Shown here: positions 20,263 to 58,429 of the stretch, one piece after another
Position numbering within the stretch: position 1 is the stretch's first letter
Layout of the letters: every line of letters starts with the position of its first letter
IMG/VR virus record: IMGVR_UViG_3300042893_001481
Origin: a virus
DNA length: 64,000 bases
Direction: 5' to 3' (one strand)
Position numbers and translations under genes: made by a program
Notes under the pieces: model-generated
The model's input: only the letters and a program-made list of their open reading frames with translations
What the model was told of the DNA's origin: nothing
Databases searched by the model: none

Positions 20263-22059
20263 ATGAATATATTTGATCCAGTAGTAACCGGTTCCTTAAT
20301 GGTATCAGGTTCAGCAACAATAACAGGTGATTTGATTGTAACGGGTACGTTACGAGCAAACATTGAAGGTAGCGTTGGTGGTGGAGCAACCACGGGTTCC
20401 AACACTTTTCAAGGAAACCAAACAATAAACGGTGATTTATTTGTTACGGGAAACTTAACAGCTCAACAATATATTGTGAGTTCATCTGTTTATTATGTGA
20501 CAGAGTCTACATTGAGCGGTTCGAATACATTCGGTAACGATTCTTTAGACTTTCATAATTTTACAGGTTCCGTTAATATCCTTGGTGATTTAAAATTAAA
20601 CGGACAAACATATACATCACAAACTTCAGGAACGTCAGGTTCTAGTGGTTCTTCAGGAACAGCTGGTTCTTCAGGAACAGCGGGAACTTCAGGTTCTAGT
20701 GGTTCATCAGGAACGGCTGGTACTTCAGGTTCTAGTGGTTCATCAGGAACTTCAGGTTCTAGTGGTTCATCAGGAACTTCAGGTTCTAGTGGTTCATCAG
20801 GAACGGCTGGTACTTCAGGTTCTAGTGGTTCATCAGGAACAGCCGGTACTTCAGGTTCTAGTGGTTCATCAGGAACGGCTGGTACTTCAGGTTCTAGTGG
20901 TTCTTCAGGAACTTCAGGTTCTAGTGGTTCTTCAGGAACGGCAGGTACATCAGGTACGTCGGTAACAGTATCGGGTACAAACAACGTACTTGGTAAATTC
21001 AGTTCAGGAACTATGGTTAACTCATTAGTAACTGATGATGGTACAACAGTTACAATTGGTGGTAATTTAACTGTTAATGGTACAACAACTACGGTTAATT
21101 CAAATACGGTTAATATTGGAGATAACATTTTAATTCTTAATTCAGATGAAATAGGTACCCCATCACAAAATGGTGGTATTGAAATTGAAAGAGGAACATC
21201 TACAAATGCAAGTTTAATATGGGACGAAACTGCGGATGTGTGGGAAGCTGGTTTGACTGGTGCCGAAGTACCAATTGTTACAACAACTGGTACACAAACA
21301 CTTACAAACAAAACAATAAATGCATCTCAATTAGTTGACGCATCGGTTGCTAACGGTAAATTAACTAACTCATCTGTAACGGTTTCAGCAGGAACAGGTA
21401 TGAGTGGTGGTGGTGCGGTATCGTTAGGAGGTACTGTGACATTAACAAACGCAGGTGTAACGTCAATCACAACAAATACAGGTTTAAGTTCAAACGTAAG
21501 TGCAACAGGAGCAGTTACAATCACAAATACTATTACTAACAATAACCAATTAACCAATGGTGCTGGATATCTTTCAACCGCTGTAACATCGGCGGTAGCG
21601 GGTACAGGTGTTGGTGTAAGTGCTGCAACAGGAGCAGTTACGTTCTCAATCGGTCAAGCGGTGGCAACATCATCAAATGTTCAATTTAACGCTTTAGGTG
21701 TTGGAACGGCAGCAGGTGCAACAGCAGGTCTCATTAGAGCAACCAACGACGTTATTGCATTCTACAGTTCTGATGAAAGATTAAAGGAGAATGTGTTGAC
21801 AATACCAAATTCTTTAGATATATTAAAACAAATCAATGGATACTCTTTCGATTGGATTCCAATGGAAGGAGTTCATGAGAATGAAGGTCACGACATAGGG
21901 GTGATAGCTCAAGAAGTTGAGAAAGTTCTACCTGAAGTTGTAACAACAAGAGATAATGGTTATAAAGCTGTTAAATATGAAAAATTGGTCGCTTTGTTAA
22001 TCCAAACAAATAAAGAATTGTTAGAGAGAGTTGAGGCACTTGAAGCCAAAATAAAATAA
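20263..22059 (+). CDS. Tail fibre-like virion protein with Ser/Gly/Thr repeat and C-terminal peptidase S74 chaperone domain
   Basis: FTGS motifs, (GTSGSS)n tract, YSSDERLKENV, GVIAQEVEKVLPEVV, YEKLVALLI, terminal coiled coil. Confidence 0.85.
   Translation: MNIFDPVVTGSLMVSGSATITGDLIVTGTLRANIEGSVGGGATTGSNTFQGNQTINGDLFVTGNLTAQQYIVSSSVYYVTESTLSGSNTFGNDSLDFHNFTGSVNILGDLKLNGQTYTSQTSGTSGSSGSSGTAGSSGTAGTSGSSGSSGTAGTSGSSGSSGTSGSSGSSGTSGSSGSSGTAGTSGSSGSSGTAGTSGSSGSSGTAGTSGSSGSSGTSGSSGSSGTAGTSGTSVTVSGTNNVLGKFSSGTMVNSLVTDDGTTVTIGGNLTVNGTTTTVNSNTVNIGDNILILNSDEIGTPSQNGGIEIERGTSTNASLIWDETADVWEAGLTGAEVPIVTTTGTQTLTNKTINASQLVDASVANGKLTNSSVTVSAGTGMSGGGAVSLGGTVTLTNAGVTSITTNTGLSSNVSATGAVTITNTITNNNQLTNGAGYLSTAVTSAVAGTGVGVSAATGAVTFSIGQAVATSSNVQFNALGVGTAAGATAGLIRATNDVIAFYSSDERLKENVLTIPNSLDILKQINGYSFDWIPMEGVHENEGHDIGVIAQEVEKVLPEVVTTRDNGYKAVKYEKLVALLIQTNKELLERVEALEAKIK
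20623..20958 (+). repeat. Coding tandem repeat of 9-bp units (TCAGGTTCT/AGTGGTTCA/TCAGGAACG/GCTGGTACT) encoding SGS-SGS-SGT-AGT
   Basis: Directly visible; 27-bp and 36-bp higher-order units. Confidence 0.95.
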
Positions 22060-24732: not shown

Positions 24733-25343
24733 ACTTTATAATAATTTTCTTTTAAATCGTTTTCATTTATATAATTTATTTTTTTCATAATAACTTGGTA
24801 ACCATTGTGTACTATTTCTAAATATTTGTGATAACCATGATAAAATGCATCCGCCCCTGTTTTAACCTGTAAATATTGTTCTTGTTCAAGTCCACCACCA
24901 TAGTCGTCGAATATAATGTAACCATTATTTTTTAAACAGTAAAATGCATTTACAGCATCTTCTAAAACATATTTTGACATATGGTTACCATCAATATAAA
25001 CAAAATCTAAAAATTCTTTTGTTTCACCATTATGATTAAACATTTTAAAACTATCGGCCGATTCCCCTAAAATGTATGTAACCTTATTATCGTATGGTTT
25101 AATGTTATTTTCAATAAACTCATTTGTATTAATATCCATGATATAATGTTGAGAACCATTCATTTTACAAAAGTTCTCTAGAATATAAACTGAAGATCCA
25201 CCATATAACGCACCAATTTCTAAACACACTCTTGGTTCATCACCATAGTTAGGTAAAAAATGTTCCCACGCATCTACATGATTTAAAAAGAAATAACGTT
25301 CTCCTTCGGGATATTTAAAATGTTCCGGATATTGATAACTCAT
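24729..25343 (-). CDS. Class I SAM methyltransferase (Methyltransf_24-like)
   Basis: LEIGALYGGS, YIDGNH, IIFDDY. Confidence 0.85.
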   Translation of the reverse strand: MSYQYPEHFKYPEGERYFFLNHVDAWEHFLPNYGDEPRVCLEIGALYGGSSVYILENFCKMNGSQHYIMDINTNEFIENNIKPYDNKVTYILGESADSFKMFNHNGETKEFLDFVYIDGNHMSKYVLEDAVNAFYCLKNNGYIIFDDYGGGLEQEQYLQVKTGADAFYHGYHKYLEIVHNGYQVIMKKINYINENDLKENYYKV

Positions 25344-25960
25344 AATGAATTGTATAAATTGTTTTGTTTTTCTTGACGTTCAATTGTCTTATGATGTTGA
25401 ATACAATATTCTTCATCCAATGGTAATGATGAGAATTTCTGACCACCAACTATTCGTTCATGAACTTTACCGTACCATGTCATTCCTTTACGATATACTC
25501 GTCCCTGTGCGTCCGGAAAGTTAACCCATCCATTTTCATTAACTCTCCAACCCCACTTAACAACATGTTCATATGTGATACCTGAAACAGTATTAATTCT
25601 TGGTACAAATATTAAATCAACGTTGGGATTCAATTCTAATATTTCATGAAGATTTTTAACCATGTACTCACTAATCATTTCATCAGCATCAATTTGATAA
25701 ATGTAATCACCAGTACAGTAATCATTTAATTTATTCTTCCAATCGGCAAAGTTGTTGTTCCAATCAATACTTCTCCAAGTTTGTACATTTGGTTTGATAT
25801 TATATGGTAATAAGAAATCTAATATTTCTTTATTACCATTATTTTCATCATATAATATTACTATCTCGTCATGAATTCTCTTGTGTTCTAATAGGAACGG
25901 AACTAATCTCTTTATCTCCTCCAGTTCATTACAAACTGTTATTGCGTAACTTATTTTCAT
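25340..25960 (-). CDS. GT2 family glycosyltransferase
   Basis: ITVCNE, FADWKN, QIDADE, PD.Q.R, VHE. Confidence 0.85.
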   Translation of the reverse strand: MKISYAITVCNELEEIKRLVPFLLEHKRIHDEIVILYDENNGNKEILDFLLPYNIKPNVQTWRSIDWNNNFADWKNKLNDYCTGDYIYQIDADEMISEYMVKNLHEILELNPNVDLIFVPRINTVSGITYEHVVKWGWRVNENGWVNFPDAQGRVYRKGMTWYGKVHERIVGGQKFSSLPLDEEYCIQHHKTIERQEKQNNLYNSL

Positions 25961-26904
25961 AAACTATTAATATATTGTTTTAATCTATCTTGAGGTTTCC
26001 AATTTAATTTATTTAATGCATCATTATTCTCTCTTAAAGTTTCTTGGTAGTTACCTTTTTGATTGGGAATATATTTTACCTCACACCCAAACCTATCCAC
26101 CAACATATGGGAAATTTCATTGATGGAATAATTAAATCCAGTACCAAATTCCCAACCGTCTTCGTGTTTCTCATTAGTAAATCCAAGTTTATATAACCCA
26201 TCAACAATATCATCTATGTGAGTGAAATCTCTACGTTGTTCACCATCACCTACAATTGTTATTGGTTGACCATCTCTAATTTGTCTTCTCCACAGTCCAA
26301 TAACCGCAGCCCAATCACCATCCATAATTTCATTTGGACCATACACATTATAAAATCTAGCAATTTCTATGTTTAATTTATAAACCTCTTTATACATTTT
26401 ACATATCTCCTCACCCATATGTTTATAACATGCGTATGGTGATATATGTGGATTGTGCCAACGAGATGATGAACCTGAGTAAATAACTTTACTATTAATT
26501 TTTTTAGCAAAATCACAAACAAGTTGTGTACCTGTCACATTAACTCTAAACGTTTCAGATGGATTGTTAAATGAGGGTTGAATTCTACTTAATGCTGCAA
26601 AATGGTATATCAAATCAAAGTCTTTATCCATTAAATCAATTTGTTCTATATCACCATTATGGTAATTACAACCAATGATTTCATTCTCATGTAATCCACT
26701 ATTGTAATTGTCTAATGAATGAACAATATATCCTTCTTTAATTAAAAGCTTAATTAAACTTGAACCAATAAAACCCGCACCGCCAGTTACAAGTATCTTC
26801 ATAGTTTTTTTAAGATTTTTTTTATATTCATTTGCTGTCAATTCTTCACACCTCCAACACCATTCTATATCATCCGTGTCCCAAATATGTCTGTCACATT
26901 TCAT
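25957..26904 (-). CDS. NAD-dependent sugar epimerase/dehydratase (extended SDR); conserved domain begins at 26802
   Basis: ILVTGGAGFIGS, YACYK, RFYNVYGP, GDGEQRRDFTH. Confidence 0.9.
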   Translation of the reverse strand: MKCDRHIWDTDDIEWCWRCEELTANEYKKNLKKTMKILVTGGAGFIGSSLIKLLIKEGYIVHSLDNYNSGLHENEIIGCNYHNGDIEQIDLMDKDFDLIYHFAALSRIQPSFNNPSETFRVNVTGTQLVCDFAKKINSKVIYSGSSSRWHNPHISPYACYKHMGEEICKMYKEVYKLNIEIARFYNVYGPNEIMDGDWAAVIGLWRRQIRDGQPITIVGDGEQRRDFTHIDDIVDGLYKLGFTNEKHEDGWEFGTGFNYSINEISHMLVDRFGCEVKYIPNQKGNYQETLRENNDALNKLNWKPQDRLKQYINSL

Positions 26905-27209
26905 GCTCTATTGTCTCCTATTCTTAACCAATGATTTAGATAATCAATACCATGATTATCACCACCATTTATTCTTCTTGTTATTGTTCTTATTACATCT
27001 TCATCAATACCTCTCGCAATTTCTTCTGACATTATTCTTGTTAGTTCGGCTTCCGCGTCAATTCCATGATGTTGATTTAAATCTTCATTCGCCTCACGAG
27101 TCCACATTGCCCTTAATGTCCTTACACCACCAGCAACGTTAACAGTATCTATGTTATTAAACACATAGGTATCTTTAACCATCCCTTCAAAAAATATAAA
27201 TTTTTTCAT
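26901..27209 (-). CDS. Small protein containing a fragment of gp23-type major capsid protein; N-terminal FxFFxG motif
   Basis: RTLRAMWTREANEDLNQHHGIDAEAELTRIMSEEI aligns without gaps to the T4 gp23 segment RQLKAAYSIELAQDLRAVHGMDADAELSGILATEI (recalled from memory). Confidence 0.75.
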   Translation of the reverse strand: MKKFIFFEGMVKDTYVFNNIDTVNVAGGVRTLRAMWTREANEDLNQHHGIDAEAELTRIMSEEIARGIDEDVIRTITRRINGGDNHGIDYLNHWLRIGDNRA

Positions 27210-27451
27210 GATAGTTTTTCTCTAGCAAATAATTTAAAAAACTTACCTGTGTTTGGATCTGTAAATTTTATATATGAATTACTATCATTACCTAATGTGA
27301 TTATAACTTCTTTGTTCGTTGAGTTTTCATCCGCCTCGGTAAAGACAACTGGTTCGTCGTTGTCAAATTGTACTACCCATTCACATGGACTAAAATATTG
27401 AATGGTGTTTTCAAGTTCAACCTTAGTTGATGTCTTTTTTTTCCTTGGCAT
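27206..27451 (-). CDS. Hypothetical protein
   Basis: 81-aa ORF coupled within minus-strand operon. Confidence 0.6.
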   Translation of the reverse strand: MPRKKKTSTKVELENTIQYFSPCEWVVQFDNDEPVVFTEADENSTNKEVIITLGNDSNSYIKFTDPNTGKFFKLFAREKLS

Positions 27452-27452
27452 A

Positions 27453-28700
27453 TTATTTAATTTTATTTAATTTAGGTAACATCAAATTAATTTGTTTTGA
27501 AATAATTGAATGTGGTTCCATATAAGATTTTAAAAGTTCTTTCATTTTGTCTAATGTAAATTTTTCTGAATTCATAATTCTTAATTTTTCAGACTTAATC
27601 AAAAACTCATCATAGTTCGATTTGACTAATTTTAATACATGAATAAATTCATCGTAATTTGCAGTAAACCATTTTGAATCCTTTATTATAAAATTGTCCT
27701 GTGCACTTACATCCACATCTGTTAATTTACCACCAATCATTGCGGCATAATCCATCGGTAAAAAATCTTTGTGACCCGACCAATTAGATGCAATCACAGG
27801 TTTACCTGTCATTGTAAATTCTAATAGAGGTCTACCAAAACCTTCTCCTTTAGTTATGGAAACCATTGCCTTTACCTTTGGGTGGTTATATAAATCATTC
27901 ATCTCTTCATCCTTTAAATCACCAAATAAAAGATATACCGGTACTTTATCGTCACCAACTATTTTTTGAATCCTATTGATTAAATTTTCACGTTCTTTAA
28001 CCGAGAATGATGCTGAAGATGTTTTTAATATTAAAGCCGGTTTATCTATTTCATCTTTAAAAGAATTAGCAAAACACTTAATTAACATACCAACATCTTT
28101 TCTATCTTGACCAATACTTCCTTTTAACCAGTGACCTACAAAAAGATAAGCGAAATCCTCTTCAATATCTAATTTAAAAGTATCATTTACATTATTGTTA
28201 TAAATTTTTTTATCTACACCTTCAAATAAAACATTAATAGGTTTATCGATTCTATGTTGTTTAATTAATCTATTTGTGTTTTTATCATTTTCATTATAAA
28301 CAGTTGACAATAAAACCTCTTTTGAAAAATTTGATGTTGTAATAATCATATCCATTACATTACAACCGTCAATCCAATCTTTTGGTGCGACCGTTGTTTC
28401 GATACCCGCAGTTACACCTATATTAAATTTACCAAGTCTTTTAAATTCATTTGGTACAGTTACTTGAATGTAAATTTCGGGAAGACCATTAAATTGTGTA
28501 ACGGTATTCTCTTCAATCCATTCATGAAACTCATTACCATCCTCCAATGCGGTTAATGGTGTTGACCCCCATAAACAACTATCTATTTTAATATCAAACA
28601 AATCTATTTCTTTTAATGCCCACAGTAAATCTCTTGAATGTGCACCATAACCACTTCTTGTTTTAACTGGTCCTCTAAATAAAATTATCGGTTTACTCAT
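27453..28700 (-). CDS. GT4-like glycosyltransferase
   Basis: SGYGAH, DRKD, KGEGFGRPLLE, WSGH. Confidence 0.85.
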   Translation of the reverse strand: MSKPIILFRGPVKTRSGYGAHSRDLLWALKEIDLFDIKIDSCLWGSTPLTALEDGNEFHEWIEENTVTQFNGLPEIYIQVTVPNEFKRLGKFNIGVTAGIETTVAPKDWIDGCNVMDMIITTSNFSKEVLLSTVYNENDKNTNRLIKQHRIDKPINVLFEGVDKKIYNNNVNDTFKLDIEEDFAYLFVGHWLKGSIGQDRKDVGMLIKCFANSFKDEIDKPALILKTSSASFSVKERENLINRIQKIVGDDKVPVYLLFGDLKDEEMNDLYNHPKVKAMVSITKGEGFGRPLLEFTMTGKPVIASNWSGHKDFLPMDYAAMIGGKLTDVDVSAQDNFIIKDSKWFTANYDEFIHVLKLVKSNYDEFLIKSEKLRIMNSEKFTLDKMKELLKSYMEPHSIISKQINLMLPKLNKIK

Positions 28701-30049
28701 ATTACTTTATATAAATTAAATCTTTCTTTTGGTTTATAGTTTTTTAACGTTGTTTCAATACCTTCGGACATTTTATCACACATGATTTTTGATGATAAAT
28801 TTTCAATTGCCCATTCTCTACCTTTTTTTCCTCTTTCTTTTCTTTCCTTACGACCCCAATTATATACTGTCATAATTGCATCGGCAACTTCATCATCATT
28901 CACTCTATCGTCGAATATATAAGGAGTTATTGGTGAACCGTTTAAATTAATTGCTGATGGCCAAACAGGTACTACCCATTCACCAGTCACCCCGCTGTTT
29001 GTTTGATGTAACGAACCAACCTCAATATAATCATCTGCAGTTAAAGGAAATCCACATTGATCTTGTAGACCACCAGTGACATTAACAATGATTGGTGTTC
29101 CCGACATTAAACTTTCAGTTGTACCCAAACCAAACCCTTCATTATTTGAAATGTTTATTGTACAATCAGAAATATTATACAATTCATTTAATGTCTCTTG
29201 TTCTATTTTATTTTCAAAAATTTTAACATCATAATCCTTACATAATGTATCAACCACAGCACCTAAATCAGTACCGTTATTATCCACTTGATTCGTTTTC
29301 ATTAATAAAAGACACTTACTTGATTGTTCTTTAGTTAATTTATCACAAAACTTTCTGTATGAATAAATTACGTCAGATGGTTGTTTTCTTCTTATGTTTC
29401 TACTGTTATAAAATAAAATAAAATCATATTCTTTATCCCCATTCACAAGTGTTTTAACATCATCAGATATTTTATCCAATGGTTTAAAAAGATTTTGATT
29501 AATACCATGTGGTACATAACTAACTTGCCATTTTTCTAGTGGTTTAAAAGAAGGTTTGGTTGTCAAACCCCCAACCCTACTAACAATACCATATGTTAGT
29601 TTAGAAATACACCCTAACCAATCACAACTTTCGTAATAATTTCTATTATAAGATGGGTCTGGTAAGTTATCCCAAATGTGATAATATAGAATTGGTACGA
29701 GTTGTCTTATTTCATGTTCAGAATCGTATAACCATTCCCAATAATGTGGATCTGTAAAATGTAAAATTGCATCTGGTTTCTCATCTTTAATTAATTTTCG
29801 TAATAAAAAAATGTCACCATATGAATTATTGGCATAAATTTTAACATTAGCATCATTAACACCAGTTCGTTTTCTTACATCATCATTTAAATCTACAACC
29901 TTTCCACTTTCAGGATGGTTAATACCTGCACCTAATTGTACCCAATCAAATTTATCAACAGTACCAAGTACTATCTCTTTTGACATGGTGGCAATACCAC
30001 TTGTCATTCTTAAATCATCTGATAATAATAAAATTTTCTTTTTACTCAT
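28697..30049 (-). CDS. GT4-like glycosyltransferase
   Basis: SDD..SG, VPHGI, RNIRRKQ, NEGFGLGTTES. Confidence 0.85.
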   Translation of the reverse strand: MSKKKILLLSDDLRMTSGIATMSKEIVLGTVDKFDWVQLGAGINHPESGKVVDLNDDVRKRTGVNDANVKIYANNSYGDIFLLRKLIKDEKPDAILHFTDPHYWEWLYDSEHEIRQLVPILYYHIWDNLPDPSYNRNYYESCDWLGCISKLTYGIVSRVGGLTTKPSFKPLEKWQVSYVPHGINQNLFKPLDKISDDVKTLVNGDKEYDFILFYNSRNIRRKQPSDVIYSYRKFCDKLTKEQSSKCLLLMKTNQVDNNGTDLGAVVDTLCKDYDVKIFENKIEQETLNELYNISDCTINISNNEGFGLGTTESLMSGTPIIVNVTGGLQDQCGFPLTADDYIEVGSLHQTNSGVTGEWVVPVWPSAINLNGSPITPYIFDDRVNDDEVADAIMTVYNWGRKERKERGKKGREWAIENLSSKIMCDKMSEGIETTLKNYKPKERFNLYKVI

Positions 30050-30050
30050 A

Positions 30051-30248
30051 TTAATATTTTGAACCACTTACTGCTAAATCAGTATAGTTATTAATCGTGT
30101 CTCTAAATTTTTCATCTTTAACATATAAATCCAAAGAACGATTTACTAATTTTTGAAGATTTATGCTACCATCTATTGCGTTTATTTTAAATTTTTTGTA
30201 AATACCATCTAAGACATGTACACTTGTTAATTTCATTTCTACTTTCAT
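30051..30248 (-). CDS. Small protein, possibly ribbon-helix-helix DNA-binding
   Basis: LTSVHV beta-like start followed by two predicted helices (LQKLVNRSLDLY). Confidence 0.45.
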   Translation of the reverse strand: MKVEMKLTSVHVLDGIYKKFKINAIDGSINLQKLVNRSLDLYVKDEKFRDTINNYTDLAVSGSKY

Positions 30249-56164: not shown

Positions 56165-56551
56165 ATGTTACCCTTCACTTTTTTTCACGGAACATCCTTT
56201 TGTATTGAACAACCCACAGCACCATTTTTTGGAGTTGGGTTGGTAAATGATTTTAATGAAAATGGAATCAATACCTTGGGATATGAACCATATTATATGG
56301 AAAGAGGAGATATGATTTTTCAATCAGATATATGTCACCGAAGTTATGTGGAATGGAGACATTTGATTGATAATAATCCTGGTGATGTAACATATTATTT
56401 ATATGCTGTGTTAAGACCTGATGAAGATTATAGAGAACAAGAAGTTATTAATCTTCATGGAGCAACCGACGTGTTCCCGTTGTTTGTTTTAGAAAATCCT
56501 CGCACAGAATTTGTATTTGAATTTATAATGATACCCAATGAAGAAGTTTAA
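56165..56551 (+). CDS. Hypothetical protein, N-terminal FTFFHG motif
   Basis: ORF track. Confidence 0.6.
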   Translation: MLPFTFFHGTSFCIEQPTAPFFGVGLVNDFNENGINTLGYEPYYMERGDMIFQSDICHRSYVEWRHLIDNNPGDVTYYLYAVLRPDEDYREQEVINLHGATDVFPLFVLENPRTEFVFEFIMIPNEEV

Positions 56552-56840
56552 ATTTTTTTATGATGAGTTTTTGAATTTAACAGAAAACGATGTTAATGAA
56601 ATCCATACACAAATGGAATTATTCGCTCGTGAGTTAGTTACAAGTGGCGAATATGAAACAACAATATTTCCAAAAAAATATGATTTTTTGGGTTACTCAT
56701 ATTACGTATCAAGTGTAACAGAAGGAATAAAAATTAACGATGGTGGAATGATGCCATATCTTGAGGATTATCATAGAGTGATAATGAATTACACTACAAA
56801 CGATTTAATAAACCAAATAAGATTTCAATTTATAATATAA
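56538..56840 (+). CDS. Hypothetical protein, N-terminal FKFF motif
   Basis: ORF track. Confidence 0.6.
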   Translation: MKKFKFFYDEFLNLTENDVNEIHTQMELFARELVTSGEYETTIFPKKYDFLGYSYYVSSVTEGIKINDGGMMPYLEDYHRVIMNYTTNDLINQIRFQFII

Positions 56841-57625
56841 TGGTAAAAATAATTTCAGGATATTCAGGTGAGGGAGGATCCACAACTATCTTAATCAACT
56901 TAACAAATTTATTTAACGAAAAGGGGGTTGAGACAATTTTTTATGGTCCTAATGATTTTCATTTAAATAAATGTAAATCAGGTAAGTCAAATAACATAAA
57001 AGTAGACAAGGATGATATTTTATTAACACATTTTATAAAATTAGAAAAAAGACCAGATGTGAAAAATATTGTATTATGTTGTCATGAAAAATGGTGGTTT
57101 GAAGTTGCGGACATACCAAATTATTGGGATAATTTAGTTTTTAGTCATGAAGAACATAGAAAATATCATAACAGATATGATGGACCCTATATGGTCATCC
57201 CAAATCCAAAAGAACCATTGACACCAATCGATAAACCTGAATTAAATTTGGTTGCTGGTGTTATTGGAACCGTTGAGCGAAGGAAACAAACACATGTTTC
57301 AATTGAAAGAGCGTTGGAGGATGGATGTACAAAAATTTACATTTATGGTAAAATATTAAAGGACGAATATTATAATGAAAATGTAAAGAAATATGAAAAT
57401 CACCCATGTGTTGAATTTGTGGGTTATGTAAATACAAAACAAGATATGTATAATAGTATAGGTAGAGTCTATCATTCATCAAATGGTGAAGTGGCTTGTT
57501 TGGTTAAAGATGAATGTCATTACACAAACACAAAGTTTTTCGGTAACGAACAAACAACACATGAAGTCTCTACACTAAATAATGATGAAATCTTTCTGTT
57601 ATGGAAAGAGGTTTTAAAATTTTAA
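56840..57625 (+). CDS. GT-B (GT4-like) glycosyltransferase
   Basis: GGS, CHE, VIPN, IGTVERRKQ, FVGY, YHSS.GE. Confidence 0.65.
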   Translation: MVKIISGYSGEGGSTTILINLTNLFNEKGVETIFYGPNDFHLNKCKSGKSNNIKVDKDDILLTHFIKLEKRPDVKNIVLCCHEKWWFEVADIPNYWDNLVFSHEEHRKYHNRYDGPYMVIPNPKEPLTPIDKPELNLVAGVIGTVERRKQTHVSIERALEDGCTKIYIYGKILKDEYYNENVKKYENHPCVEFVGYVNTKQDMYNSIGRVYHSSNGEVACLVKDECHYTNTKFFGNEQTTHEVSTLNNDEIFLLWKEVLKF

Positions 57626-57629
57626 TGTT

Positions 57630-58004
57630 ATGAGAGAATTTAAATTATTACGAGGTTATCAAGAAATAAACCCATTAACAAATATTGATTGGAGTACAAT
57701 TAATAGAATAAATGATTTAAATACAATTGTCACCCCATACACACCACATTGGAATGGGATAAACTATACACCTACATGGGTAACTAATCCAGGTTACATA
57801 ATTCCACAACCATATACAATAACAACAACACCTGGTTATGGTACATTTACAATACCAAGTTACGGAACAATAACAACAGGAACCATAACAAGTTCTACTT
57901 TAACAACATCAAACCCAAATGGGATAACTTACACAACGGGAGGTTTCGGTGGAACTTTAACAACAGGCACAGCAAACACATTTTACACCTCAAATATTAA
58001 GTAA
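57630..58004 (+). CDS. Thr-rich low-complexity protein, N-terminal FKLLRG motif
   Basis: ORF track. Confidence 0.6.
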   Translation: MREFKLLRGYQEINPLTNIDWSTINRINDLNTIVTPYTPHWNGINYTPTWVTNPGYIIPQPYTITTTPGYGTFTIPSYGTITTGTITSSTLTTSNPNGITYTTGGFGGTLTTGTANTFYTSNIK

Positions 58005-58429
58005 TGACCAAGTTCAAATTTTTCAGAGGATATGTTGGGACATTAAATGTAATGGATGGACAAACATATGCCACCGCATCGTTTAATGATGACACTCCTG
58101 AAGGTCATATGGGTAGAAGAAGATTGTACCACACTAGAGAGATGTATCAAAGACCTATAGAAGGTGAAGTTATTACTCAACAACAATGGAATTTGAATAG
58201 AGACGCAGCTGCCGAACAAGGGGAAAGATTACATAGAGATTTAAATGATAACCCAATAAGATTATTTCAATCAACAAGAGTAACAACCGTTAACCCAAAG
58301 TTTTGGACGAAGGTAAAGATAGTTCTTCAAGAAAGTTGGAGGTTAGAACCTGTTGGTGTTGTTGTTGTGAGTATATTGTTAACAATGGTTACAATCATTG
58401 GAATTGCTAAATTACTAAATGCGTTTTAA
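58004..58429 (+). CDS. Tail-anchored membrane protein, N-terminal FKFFRG motif
   Basis: C-terminal TM segment. Confidence 0.6.
   Translation: MTKFKFFRGYVGTLNVMDGQTYATASFNDDTPEGHMGRRRLYHTREMYQRPIEGEVITQQQWNLNRDAAAEQGERLHRDLNDNPIRLFQSTRVTTVNPKFWTKVKIVLQESWRLEPVGVVVVSILLTMVTIIGIAKLLNAF

What the first reader, a model, noticed from the sequence alone, without database searches (positions are those of the whole stretch)
26901..27209. Isolated major-capsid-protein fragment fused to the FxFFxG motif inside a glycosyltransferase operon
Seen: the 102-aa ORF contains IDTVNVAGGVRTLRAMWTREANEDLNQHHGIDAEAELTRIMSEEIARGIDEDVI. Established (from memory): the conserved gp23-type capsid segment IDKQVIEAKSRQLKAAYSIELAQDLRAVHGMDADAELSGILATEIMLEINREVV aligns with it ungapped. 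The ORF is intact, coupled to both neighbours by ATGA overlaps, and no head genes are nearby in this window. Inference: a repurposed capsid piece rather than a relic, e.g. a decoy for capsid-sensing defence systems, an inhibitor of competing phage assembly or an assembly modulator.
Basis: partly seen in the sequence, partly recalled or inferred. Interest (0 to 1): 0.72.

Follow-up and report, generated by a model that had tools for sequence, protein, structure and literature searches.

The report
Tagged capsid-fragment mini-protein in giant phage
A giant uncultured freshwater phage keeps a small, conserved gene made of an end-tag, the best-conserved piece of a T4-type head-shell protein and probably a lysozyme motif; I found no published description of this gene type, and its function is untested.

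Summary
ORF 26901-27209 (minus strand, 102 aa) is intact and overlaps both neighbours by ATGA. Residues 19-78 match Pfam Gp23 (E 1.2e-14, above the curated cut-off), and the segment aligns without gaps to T4 gp23 residues 260-312.

It is not a relic. At least 87 clusters of 57-112 aa homologues exist. In all 14 loci examined the gene sits in the same slot of the same glycosyltransferase operon. dN/dS is 0.45 overall and 0.32 in the helix.

- The fragment is the most invariant block of the Gp23 family. In T4 this block holds the capsomer-to-capsomer contact, the head-length mutation sites and the spine helix.
- The C-terminal tail probably copies the TRRINGG signature of GH19 phage lysozymes, so the protein looks like a mosaic.
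- A 95%-complete 316-kb relative carries the same operon plus its own 575-aa Gp23 capsid gene and a full GH19 lysozyme. The mini is only 50% identical to that capsid gene, so it is an old derivative.
- AlphaFold finds helices but no confident fold, which suggests it needs a partner.

My best guess, at 0.35, is that it mimics the capsomer edge and acts on Gp23-type assembly. A decoy role or a capsid-unrelated role remains open.

Earlier notes from this scan describe the same gene class in other genomes.

The parts
26901..27209 (-). Whole mini-gene: 102 codons plus stop
   Evidence: ORF list. Intact homologues in 87 clusters. dN/dS 0.45.
27183..27209 (-). N-terminal end-tag, residues 1-9 (M-x-x-F-x-F-F-x-G)
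   Evidence: F4, F6, F7 and G9 are invariant in A1 and at least 90% conserved in 124 sequences. 83 of 87 members carry the tag. The same motif starts five other window ORFs. The Gly codon varies (GGG, GGA, GGT, GGC), so selection acts on the protein.
26973..27161 (-). Gp23-derived block, residues 17-79: beta-hairpin, short acidic helix, IDAEAEL turn and spine helix. Equivalent to T4 gp23 residues about 251-313.
   Evidence: Pfam. Ungapped BLASTP to capsid proteins P0201 and the G007 capsid protein. hhalign probability 99.1%, E 5e-19. T4 alignment.
27069..27098 (-). Short acidic helix, residues 38-47. Counterpart of the T4 P-domain short helix that contacts neighbouring capsomers.
   Evidence: AlphaFold helix 38-47. 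Mapping by the +234 offset onto the T4 structure paper PMC9546572.
26970..27062 (-). IDAEAEL turn plus long helix, residues 50-80: the spine-helix counterpart and the constant core of the family
   Evidence: AlphaFold helix 52-80, pLDDT about 73. dN/dS 0.32. D51, E55, L56, S61 and D69 are at least 90% conserved.
26916..26999 (-). Tail, residues 71-98: TRRINGG loop plus a last helix, resembling the C-terminal signature of GH19 phage lysozymes
   Evidence: GH19 ORFs in L012, L013 and L014 end with the same motif. hhalign 96.6% (but the target set was chosen by the motif). The four best PDB hits are GH19-type endolysins or lytic enzymes, E 0.06-0.2. The reverse GH19 profile hits only the mini in 5 contigs and, in G007, only the mini plus the true GH19 gene. 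Against G007's own GH19 the match is weak, E 0.03.
26904..26912 (-). Conserved C-terminal N-R-A end
   Evidence: 67 of 87 members end in RA, including short forms that lack the last helix.
27206..27451 (-). Upstream translationally coupled 81-aa ORF. It belongs to a small-protein family with two paralogue types, both ending FKLFAR.
   Evidence: Alignment A2. At least one paralogue precedes the mini in every locus. No Pfam or PDB match.
25957..26904 (-). Downstream coupled gene: NAD-dependent sugar epimerase. Its first 34 residues are a Cys/His-rich piece that is a separate 60-61 aa ORF in relatives.
   Evidence: Pfam Epimerase, E 1.3e-45. Separate small ORF in L003-L008 and L041.
27453..30067 (-). 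Two upstream glycosyltransferases (415 aa and 450-456 aa) of the conserved operon core
   Evidence: Pfam Glycos_transf_1. Conserved order in all loci.
25340..25960 (-). GT2-type 206-aa gene of the conserved operon core
   Evidence: Orthologues at 63-91% identity follow the mini in all loci. They carry Pfam Glycos_transf_2 in relatives.

Best explanation
Shown: this is a real gene under purifying selection, present in a lineage of roughly 320-340 kb phages that probably infect Bacteroidota. It encodes a mosaic mini-protein with three parts. First comes a short N-terminal tag shared with other small proteins of the phage. Second comes a 63-residue copy of the most conserved block of the T4-type (Gp23) capsid protein. 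Third comes a short tail that probably derives from the conserved C-terminal motif of GH19 phage lysozymes.

Inferred: it works by molecular mimicry. In T4 the copied block holds the basic strand and the short acidic helix through which neighbouring capsomers hold each other at the quasi-threefold axes. It also holds the sites where point mutations change head length, and the spine helix that sets chaperonin dependence. A free copy of that block cannot fold into a shell subunit. It could, however, dock on the edge of Gp23-type capsomers, or on a factor that normally grips that edge. In that way it could cap, delay or redirect shell assembly, either of the phage's own head or of a co-infecting T4-type rival. 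The tag would send it to the same unknown reader as the other tagged proteins.
For: Real and under selection:
- 87 homologue clusters; 605 representatives in the 50% library, with the short forms scoring best.
- The same operon slot in 14 loci, including distant members.
- dN/dS 0.45 overall, 0.34 in the tag and 0.32 in the helix, against 0.15-0.17 for the neighbouring enzymes.

Truly derived from Gp23:
- Pfam E 1.2e-14; hhalign 99.1% to a same-lineage capsid protein.
- 15 of 23 positions invariant in capsid proteins are identical in the mini. W36, D51, E55, L56, S61 and D69 are kept in at least 92% of 124 minis.

It is the most conserved block: nearly all invariant columns of the 13-protein capsid alignment fall inside it.

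Role of the block in T4:
- The alignment offset of +234 reproduces the residue letters at A268, A275, D285, D287, G292, V306 and V307 named in PMC9546572.
- That paper places here the short acidic P-domain helix and basic strand that make the intercapsomer charge contact.
- It also places here one cluster of head-length mutations and three gp31-bypass positions.

Partner dependence: AlphaFold gives helices 38-47, 52-80 and 87-97 but pTM only 0.27 and no tertiary fold, even with 124 sequences.

The lineage uses a Gp23 head: the relative G007 (316 kb, 95% complete) has the same operon and a 575-aa Gp23 capsid gene behind a scaffold-like gene.
Against:
- The gene lies in a sugar-enzyme operon about 180 kb from the head genes in G007, not in a head module.
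- The hairpin and short acidic helix, which are the proposed contact elements, are shortened or missing in some orthologues such as L006 and L004. Only the tag, the long helix and TRRINGG are universal.
- The GH19-like tail has no place in a capsid-edge model.
- The other tagged proteins in the window show no detectable head-protein pieces. The one exception is a weak N-arm-like stretch in 63550-63930.
- Expression, timing and location are unknown.
Confidence: 0.35

Rival explanations
1. Immune decoy or antagonist. The mini-protein displays the most conserved surface blocks of phage proteins (capsid, perhaps lysozyme). It would occupy or blunt host sensors that recognise such conserved proteins, without supplying the full fold or oligomer needed to trigger them.
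For: The protein is a mosaic of the most conserved blocks of two unrelated conserved phage proteins. It evolves about twice as fast as its neighbours at non-synonymous sites and has frequent indels, as conflict genes often do. It lies in an accessory island. Capsid proteins are documented triggers of several defence systems: CapRel, Thoeris, CBASS and Avs families (review PMC13728456; preprint 10.64898/2026.01.04.697583).
Against: The Avs preprint reports that sensors recognise conserved core folds, not linear blocks, and a fragment could just as well trigger a sensor. I found no mention of lysozymes as triggers in that paper. I found no published phage decoy of this kind. Nothing was tested here.
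Confidence: 0.2
2. A tag-addressed small protein whose job has nothing to do with capsids. The Gp23 and GH19 pieces would merely be recycled helical building material. The function would be set by the FKFF-type tag and by the operon, for example as an accessory or specificity factor for the glycosyltransferases that may decorate the neighbouring Ser/Thr-rich fibre.
For: The tag is the most invariant part and is shared with unrelated small ORFs. The slot between the same glycosyltransferases is constant in all loci, with translational coupling. A collagen-like fibre gene lies about 5 kb away. In GH19 enzymes the INGG loop lies in the sugar-binding groove (my own knowledge, not checked here).
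Against: Retention of the capsid family's invariant residues across orthologues that share only about 35-50% identity overall is hard to explain if the capsid-type constraints were gone. Gene order is conserved across this whole region in these phages, so position alone says little.
Confidence: 0.25
3. A minor structural (cement or anchor) protein of the virion. It would sit at the quasi-threefold contacts of the shell by pairing its capsid-like strand and acidic helix with those of the major capsid protein.
For: It rests on the same structural mapping as the best explanation. Large capsids commonly need cement proteins (my own knowledge).
Against: The gene lies far from the head genes. The AlphaFold model is of low confidence. 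The contact elements are dispensable in some orthologues. No proteomic data are available.
Confidence: 0.1
4. A decaying remnant of a duplicated capsid gene, kept open by chance.
For: Only 60 of 376 model positions are present. Selection is weaker than on the neighbours.
Against: The start, stop and length class are conserved in 87 clusters. dN/dS is well below 1 in the tag and helix. A new tag and tail have been added. The slot is the same across relatives whose synonymous sites are close to saturation.
Confidence: 0.03

Closest known systems
T4-type major capsid protein gp23 and vertex protein gp24 (Pfam PF07068; PDB 6uzc, 5vf3, 1yue)
   Same: Residues 17-79 are homologous to the P-domain hairpin, short acidic helix and spine helix (T4 residues about 251-313), and most family-invariant residues are kept.
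   Different: It covers only about one sixth of the family model. It has no A domain, N-arm, insertion domain or P-domain sheet, so it cannot form a shell subunit. It carries a foreign tag and tail and lies outside the head module.
microProteins (miPs) of plants and animals: small single-interface proteins derived from larger ones that act by titrating them (my own knowledge; not found for phage capsids in the literature searches)
   Same: It is small. It derives from an interaction-rich block of a larger protein that the same lineage also encodes (G007). No autonomous fold is predicted.
   Different: No interaction or dominant-negative effect has been shown. It carries an extra tag and a second borrowed motif.
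Capsid-targeting sequence (CTS) proteins of T4: internal proteins IPI-III and Alt (my own knowledge)
   Same: A short N-terminal peptide is shared by several unrelated small proteins of one phage.
   Different: The motif differs. Position 8 varies (E, H, R, G, K, V), so there is no conserved L/I-x-E protease site. Packaging has not been shown.
Capsid-size redirecting proteins of phage satellites: P4 Sid, SaPI CpmB, PLE TcaP (my own knowledge)
   Same: They are small proteins that act at capsomer interfaces and change shell geometry. The copied block is where T4 head-length mutations map.
   Different: There is no sequence relationship. Those proteins are not derived from capsid proteins, and they are encoded by satellites, not by the phage itself.
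GH19 / COG3179 phage lysozymes ('predicted chitinase')
   Same: The tail shares the TRRINGG loop and the pattern of the following helix. This explains the 'predicted chitinase' label that JGI gives some homologues.
   Different: Only about 28 residues are shared. There is no Pfam GH19 match and none of the catalytic domain is present. The match to the lineage's own GH19 is weak.

Membership tests
Gp23 major capsid protein family (PF07068) | Significant match to the family model | tested here: met
   54.9 bits against a cut-off of 24.4, E 1.2e-14. The match covers only model positions 137-196 of 376.
Gp23 major capsid protein family (PF07068) | Complete HK97-type subunit (N-arm, E-loop, P-domain sheet, A domain) able to form capsomers | tested here: not met
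   The protein has 102 residues, and only the hairpin, short helix and spine helix are present. AlphaFold gives three helices and no fold.
Gp23 major capsid protein family (PF07068) | Encoded in the head module next to scaffold and prohead protease genes | tested here: not met
   It lies between glycosyltransferase genes. In G007 the true capsid gene sits behind a scaffold-like gene about 180 kb away.
GH19 lysozyme/chitinase (PF00182, COG3179) | Match to the catalytic-domain model | tested here: not met
   No Pfam hit for the tail at E up to 10. The only PHROG hit is a weak one to a chitinase family, E 0.072.
GH19 lysozyme/chitinase (PF00182, COG3179) | C-terminal TRRINGG loop followed by a terminal helix | tested here: met
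   Significance is uncertain, because part of the evidence used targets picked by the motif.
T4 capsid-targeting-sequence proteins | N-terminal peptide ending in a conserved L/I-x-E prohead-protease site | tested here: not met
   The tag is M-x-x-F-K-F-F-x-G, and the residue before Gly is variable.
T4 capsid-targeting-sequence proteins | Protein is packaged into the head | not testable with these tools
   No proteomic data are available.
microProtein-type regulators | Small protein homologous to an interaction block of a larger protein encoded by the same genome | tested here: met
   In G007 the 70-aa mini and the 575-aa capsid protein share 50% identity over 52 residues. The window itself holds no capsid gene.
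microProtein-type regulators | Binds and titrates the parent protein | not testable with these tools

The most novel reading that the evidence does not exclude
Giant phages carry a previously undescribed class of tagged mosaic micro-proteins, assembled from the most conserved blocks of their own virion and lysis proteins. These would act as molecular mimics in conflicts: either as decoys that blunt host sensors of conserved phage proteins, or as dominant-negative poisons of the heads of co-infecting T4-type phages.
Probability: 0.2. Interest if true: 0.9.

Novelty: categorically new. Interest (0 to 1): 0.66.

Why it matters
Capsid proteins are both the core of virion assembly and a main target of bacterial immune sensors. 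A free-standing, tagged copy of the block that holds capsomers together and governs head length in T4 would be a new kind of phage regulator or weapon. It could control assembly, interfere with rival phages, or evade immunity.

The question is easy to test, because the protein is small and the T4 system is tractable.

The gene is also common in lake metagenomes yet absent from the best-matching records of 50,697 cultured-phage genomes. Current annotation ('hypothetical', 'Gp23 domain protein', 'predicted chitinase') therefore hides a recurrent gene class.

Tried and rejected
Tools that could not be used:
- Complex prediction (mini plus capsid protein) was unavailable.
- The resulting models were too weak (pTM 0.22 and 0.27) for a meaningful fold search, so none was run.

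Searches for the lineage's own capsid gene that failed:
- No Gp23, T4 portal, prohead protease or gp19 tail tube in five related 75-176 kb contigs.
- The candidate capsid protein P0201 (same GC content) could not be linked to the lineage.
- Five further contigs that hold the capsid gene lack both the mini and its operon, so they say nothing either way.

Other dead ends:
- The 'longer' homologue search found nothing.
- The attempt to build an unbiased GH19 profile returned only 90-99% identical orthologues.
- The tail profile found no relative in head-module proteins or elsewhere in the window.
- The 81-aa neighbour and the other tagged ORFs match no Pfam, PHROG or PDB family.
- The promoter and terminator scan was no better than shuffled sequence.

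Readings rejected:
- A decaying relic, because the gene is under selection and persists in relatives.
- An active chitinase, because no catalytic domain is present.
- The T4 Gol peptide, because that lies at gp23 residues about 94-122 (my own knowledge) and this block is 260-312.
- A T4-type capsid-targeting sequence, because there is no conserved cleavage site.

Full report
**The observation.** The window (30.6% G+C) has a 102-codon ORF at 26901-27209 on the minus strand. Its start overlaps the stop of an upstream 81-aa ORF by ATGA, and its stop overlaps the start of the downstream gene in the same way. Residues 19-78 match Pfam Gp23 with E 1.2e-14 and 54.9 bits against a cut-off of 24.4, covering model positions 137-196 of 376. 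They also match PHROG 138, major head protein, with E 1.1e-13. Both flanks are sugar enzymes: a 415-aa and a 450-aa group-1 glycosyltransferase upstream, and an NAD-dependent epimerase and a 206-aa GT2-type gene downstream. There is no second Gp23 match in the window (tblastn). The large ORFs scanned include no head genes; the only structural gene seen is a collagen-like fibre with an S74 chaperone domain at 20263-22059.

**A conserved family, not a relic.** A search of 5.8 billion proteins found 87 clusters of 57-112 aa homologues at 43-96% identity. An exhaustive search of the 50% library gave 605 hits at E up to 0.001. The best of these are short proteins; full-length capsid proteins come lower, at about 34-45% identity over residues 19-80. 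The ESM Atlas holds clusters of such short viral Gp23-domain proteins with 127, 77 and 52 members. Among 50,697 cultured-phage records every match is under 60% identical, and the 40 best rows are all annotated capsid genes.

In every locus I could read, the gene occupies the same slot. These loci are eleven IMG/VR contigs, a 235-kb JGI contig, an NCBI metagenome-assembly contig and an ENA contig. The order is glycosyltransferase (about 450 aa), glycosyltransferase (about 415 aa), one or two small proteins, the mini-gene, a 60-aa Cys/His-rich ORF where present, then the GT2-type gene. This is therefore one orthologous gene of one phage lineage.

Nei-Gojobori estimates over nine orthologues give dN/dS of 0.45 overall. 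By region the values are 0.34 in the tag, 0.68 in residues 11-48, 0.32 in the helix and 0.77 in the tail. The two flanking enzymes give 0.17 and 0.15. The gene is under purifying selection, but it changes about twice as fast as its neighbours and takes indels in its middle.

**Architecture.**
- Of the 87 members, 83 carry the N-terminal F-x-F-F/L tag, 85 the INGG motif, 72 the last helix, and 67 end in RA.
- F4, F6, F7, G9, W36, D51, S61, D69, R78 and G82 are invariant in 29 sequences.
- Some orthologues lack the hairpin and short helix (L006). Others lack the last helix (L008, L009).
- The constant core is therefore the tag, the IDAEAEL turn, the long helix, TRRINGG and the RA end.
- AlphaFold with 29 sequences gave pLDDT 49. 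With 124 sequences it gave pLDDT 61.8 and pTM 0.27, with helices at 38-47, 52-80 and 87-97 and an unstructured first 37 residues.
- The protein does not look like an autonomous domain.

**What was copied from the capsid protein.** In an alignment of 13 full-length Gp23-type proteins, nearly all invariant columns fall in one block, and that block is the one the mini carries. Fifteen of 23 invariant positions are identical in the window's protein. W36, D51, E55, L56, S61 and D69 are kept in at least 92% of 124 minis.

The HMMER alignment fixes an offset of +234 to T4 numbering. That offset reproduces the residue letters of A268, A275, D285, D287, G292, V306 and V307 named in the T4 head structure paper, PMC9546572. 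According to that paper, the region holds three things:
[quoted passage not shown] These act as anchor points and stay fixed during expansion.
- one cluster of head-length mutations (A268V, A275T, D285V, D287V/N).
- the spine-helix positions of a gp31-bypass triple mutant (G292S, V306I, V307I).

The mini therefore carries the capsomer-edge contact elements and the spine helix, and nothing else of the subunit.

**The tail.** JGI labels some homologues 'predicted chitinase'. The pattern search for relatives also pulled out three high-GC viral ORFs that are GH19-type lysozymes (Pfam PF00182 for two of them). Their C-termini carry the same TRRINGG loop, flanked by similar residues on both sides.

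The supporting evidence is as follows:
- Profile-profile comparison gives 96.6% probability over 33 columns. Those targets had been selected by the motif, so this figure is inflated.
- Less biased: a profile of the tail alone ranks four GH19-type endolysins or lytic enzymes first among 177,635 PDB sequences, but at E 0.06-0.2.
- A GH19 profile hits only the mini in five related contigs.
- In the near-complete genome G007, that profile hits only the true GH19 gene and the mini.
- Against G007's own GH19 sequence the match falls in the right place but is weak, E 0.03 over 15 columns.
- An attempt at an unbiased profile returned only near-identical orthologues.

I rate a true GH19 origin at roughly 60%. 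There is no catalytic domain, so the protein is not a chitinase.

**The lineage and its own capsid gene.** No whole genome is held for the window. Five related contigs of 75-176 kb, which CheckV rates 23-53% complete, hold no head or tail genes.

A sixth relative, the IMG/VR contig handled here as G007 (316,007 bp, 95% complete), carries the same operon with a 70-aa mini. It also carries:
- a 575-aa Gp23 capsid gene behind a scaffold-like gene, about 180 kb away;
- a 280-aa GH19 lysozyme;
- a third, weak Gp23 match, which is an N-arm-like piece inside another tagged 155-aa ORF.

The mini is 50% identical to its own genome's capsid protein over 52 residues. The window's mini is 40% identical over 60 residues. 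Two capsid proteins of this type, 46% identical overall, are much more alike in the block. The mini is therefore an old, separately evolving derivative and not a fresh copy. A tree of the block is poorly resolved. It puts 79 of 84 minis on one side and all 11 full-length capsid proteins on the other, with weak support (78).

Contigs of 320-340 kb that carry the lineage's lysozyme suggest the genome size. Two homologues come from a metagenome-assembled genome labelled Bacteroidota, which hints at the host. The 'moraphages' of PMC12619734 may be related: they are aquatic giant phages of Bacteroidota with T4-like head genes and core glycosyltransferases. I did not test this.

**The tag.** Six window ORFs of at least 45 aa start with M, one to four residues, then F-x-F-F/L. 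By my own rough calculation, about 0.2 would be expected by chance. One paralogue of the small upstream protein family also starts with the tag, and both paralogues end in FKLFAR. The codons of that ending include the Shine-Dalgarno-like sequence for the mini. Earlier notes from this scan describe the tag on dozens of proteins of such phages and found no reader for it. I checked only its presence and conservation.

**How it most likely works.** What is shown is the gene's reality, the selection on it, its architecture, the origin of its blocks, and the existence of a Gp23 head in the lineage. What follows is inference.

A free copy of the self-complementary capsomer-edge elements and the spine helix, unable to fold alone, is best suited to dock on Gp23-type capsomers or on something that grips that edge. 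It would thereby cap, delay or bias shell assembly of its own head or a rival's. I put this at 0.35.

The rivals are:
- a decoy for sensors of conserved phage proteins (0.2). Capsid proteins are known triggers, but sensors are reported to read folds.
- a tag-addressed protein working with the sugar operon, with the blocks merely recycled (0.25).
- a cement protein of the virion (0.1).
- a relic (0.03).

**Novelty.** Four literature searches found no description of capsid-fragment mini-proteins in phages. The closest concept is the microProtein of plants and animals. Earlier notes from this scan report the same class in other genomes, including tagged fragments of capsid, protease and portal proteins. 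Those are leads from the same kind of analysis, not independent proof.

Noticed in passing
window 63550-63930 (+): Another tagged ORF (126 aa). Its first 41 residues are 44% identical to a tagged 155-aa ORF of the relative G007. That ORF gives a weak Gp23 match to the N-arm part of the model (positions 7-80, E 8.5e-5) and matches residues 75-99 of G007's capsid protein (E 0.002). The window copy itself has no Pfam hit.
   Followed up: partly
window 27206-27451 (-); L003, L004, L006, L007: The small protein upstream of the mini belongs to a family with two paralogue types. One starts with a basic stretch and the other with the FKFF-type tag; both end in FKLFAR. Relatives carry one or both types. 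The codons of the FKLFAR ending also supply the Shine-Dalgarno-like sequence for the mini-gene. There is no Pfam or PDB match.
   Followed up: partly
window 26803-26904 (-): The epimerase gene starts with a 34-residue Cys/His-rich piece that is a separate 60-61 aa ORF in relatives. In the window's lineage that small gene appears to be fused to, or overwritten by, an inserted epimerase.
   Followed up: partly
window 56165-63930 (+): A cluster of small ORFs (56165, 56538, 58004, 60697, 63550) all start with the same F-x-F-F motif. None has a Pfam or PHROG match.
   Followed up: partly
window 20263-22059 (+): A fibre gene with a long Gly/Ser/Thr collagen-like repeat and an S74 intramolecular chaperone domain lies beside the sugar-enzyme island. 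It is a plausible substrate for glycosylation.
   Followed up: no
window 28697-30049 (-): The 450-aa glycosyltransferase gives a sub-threshold match (24.3 bits, cut-off 26) to Pfam GT4-conflict, a family of glycosyltransferases found in conflict systems.
   Followed up: no
window 26904-26954 (-), residues 85-102 of the mini: Synonymous divergence in the last 18 codons is about half that of the rest of the gene (pS 0.28 against about 0.5). This may reflect a nucleotide-level constraint ahead of the next gene's start.
   Followed up: no
P0105, P0147, P0150, P0179, P0227 (other metagenomic proteins): Other AT-rich viral proteins embed the same Gp23 block in different settings. One carries two copies, and one joins it to an N-arm (Gol-region-like) piece in permuted order. 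Several carry other repeated short motifs.
   Followed up: no
L058:1195-2034 (G007) and P0234-P0353: The lineage's GH19 lysozyme (PG-binding domain plus GH19) is 90-99% identical across 120 clusters, on contigs of up to 340 kb. That is far more conserved than the mini or the glycosyltransferases.
   Followed up: no
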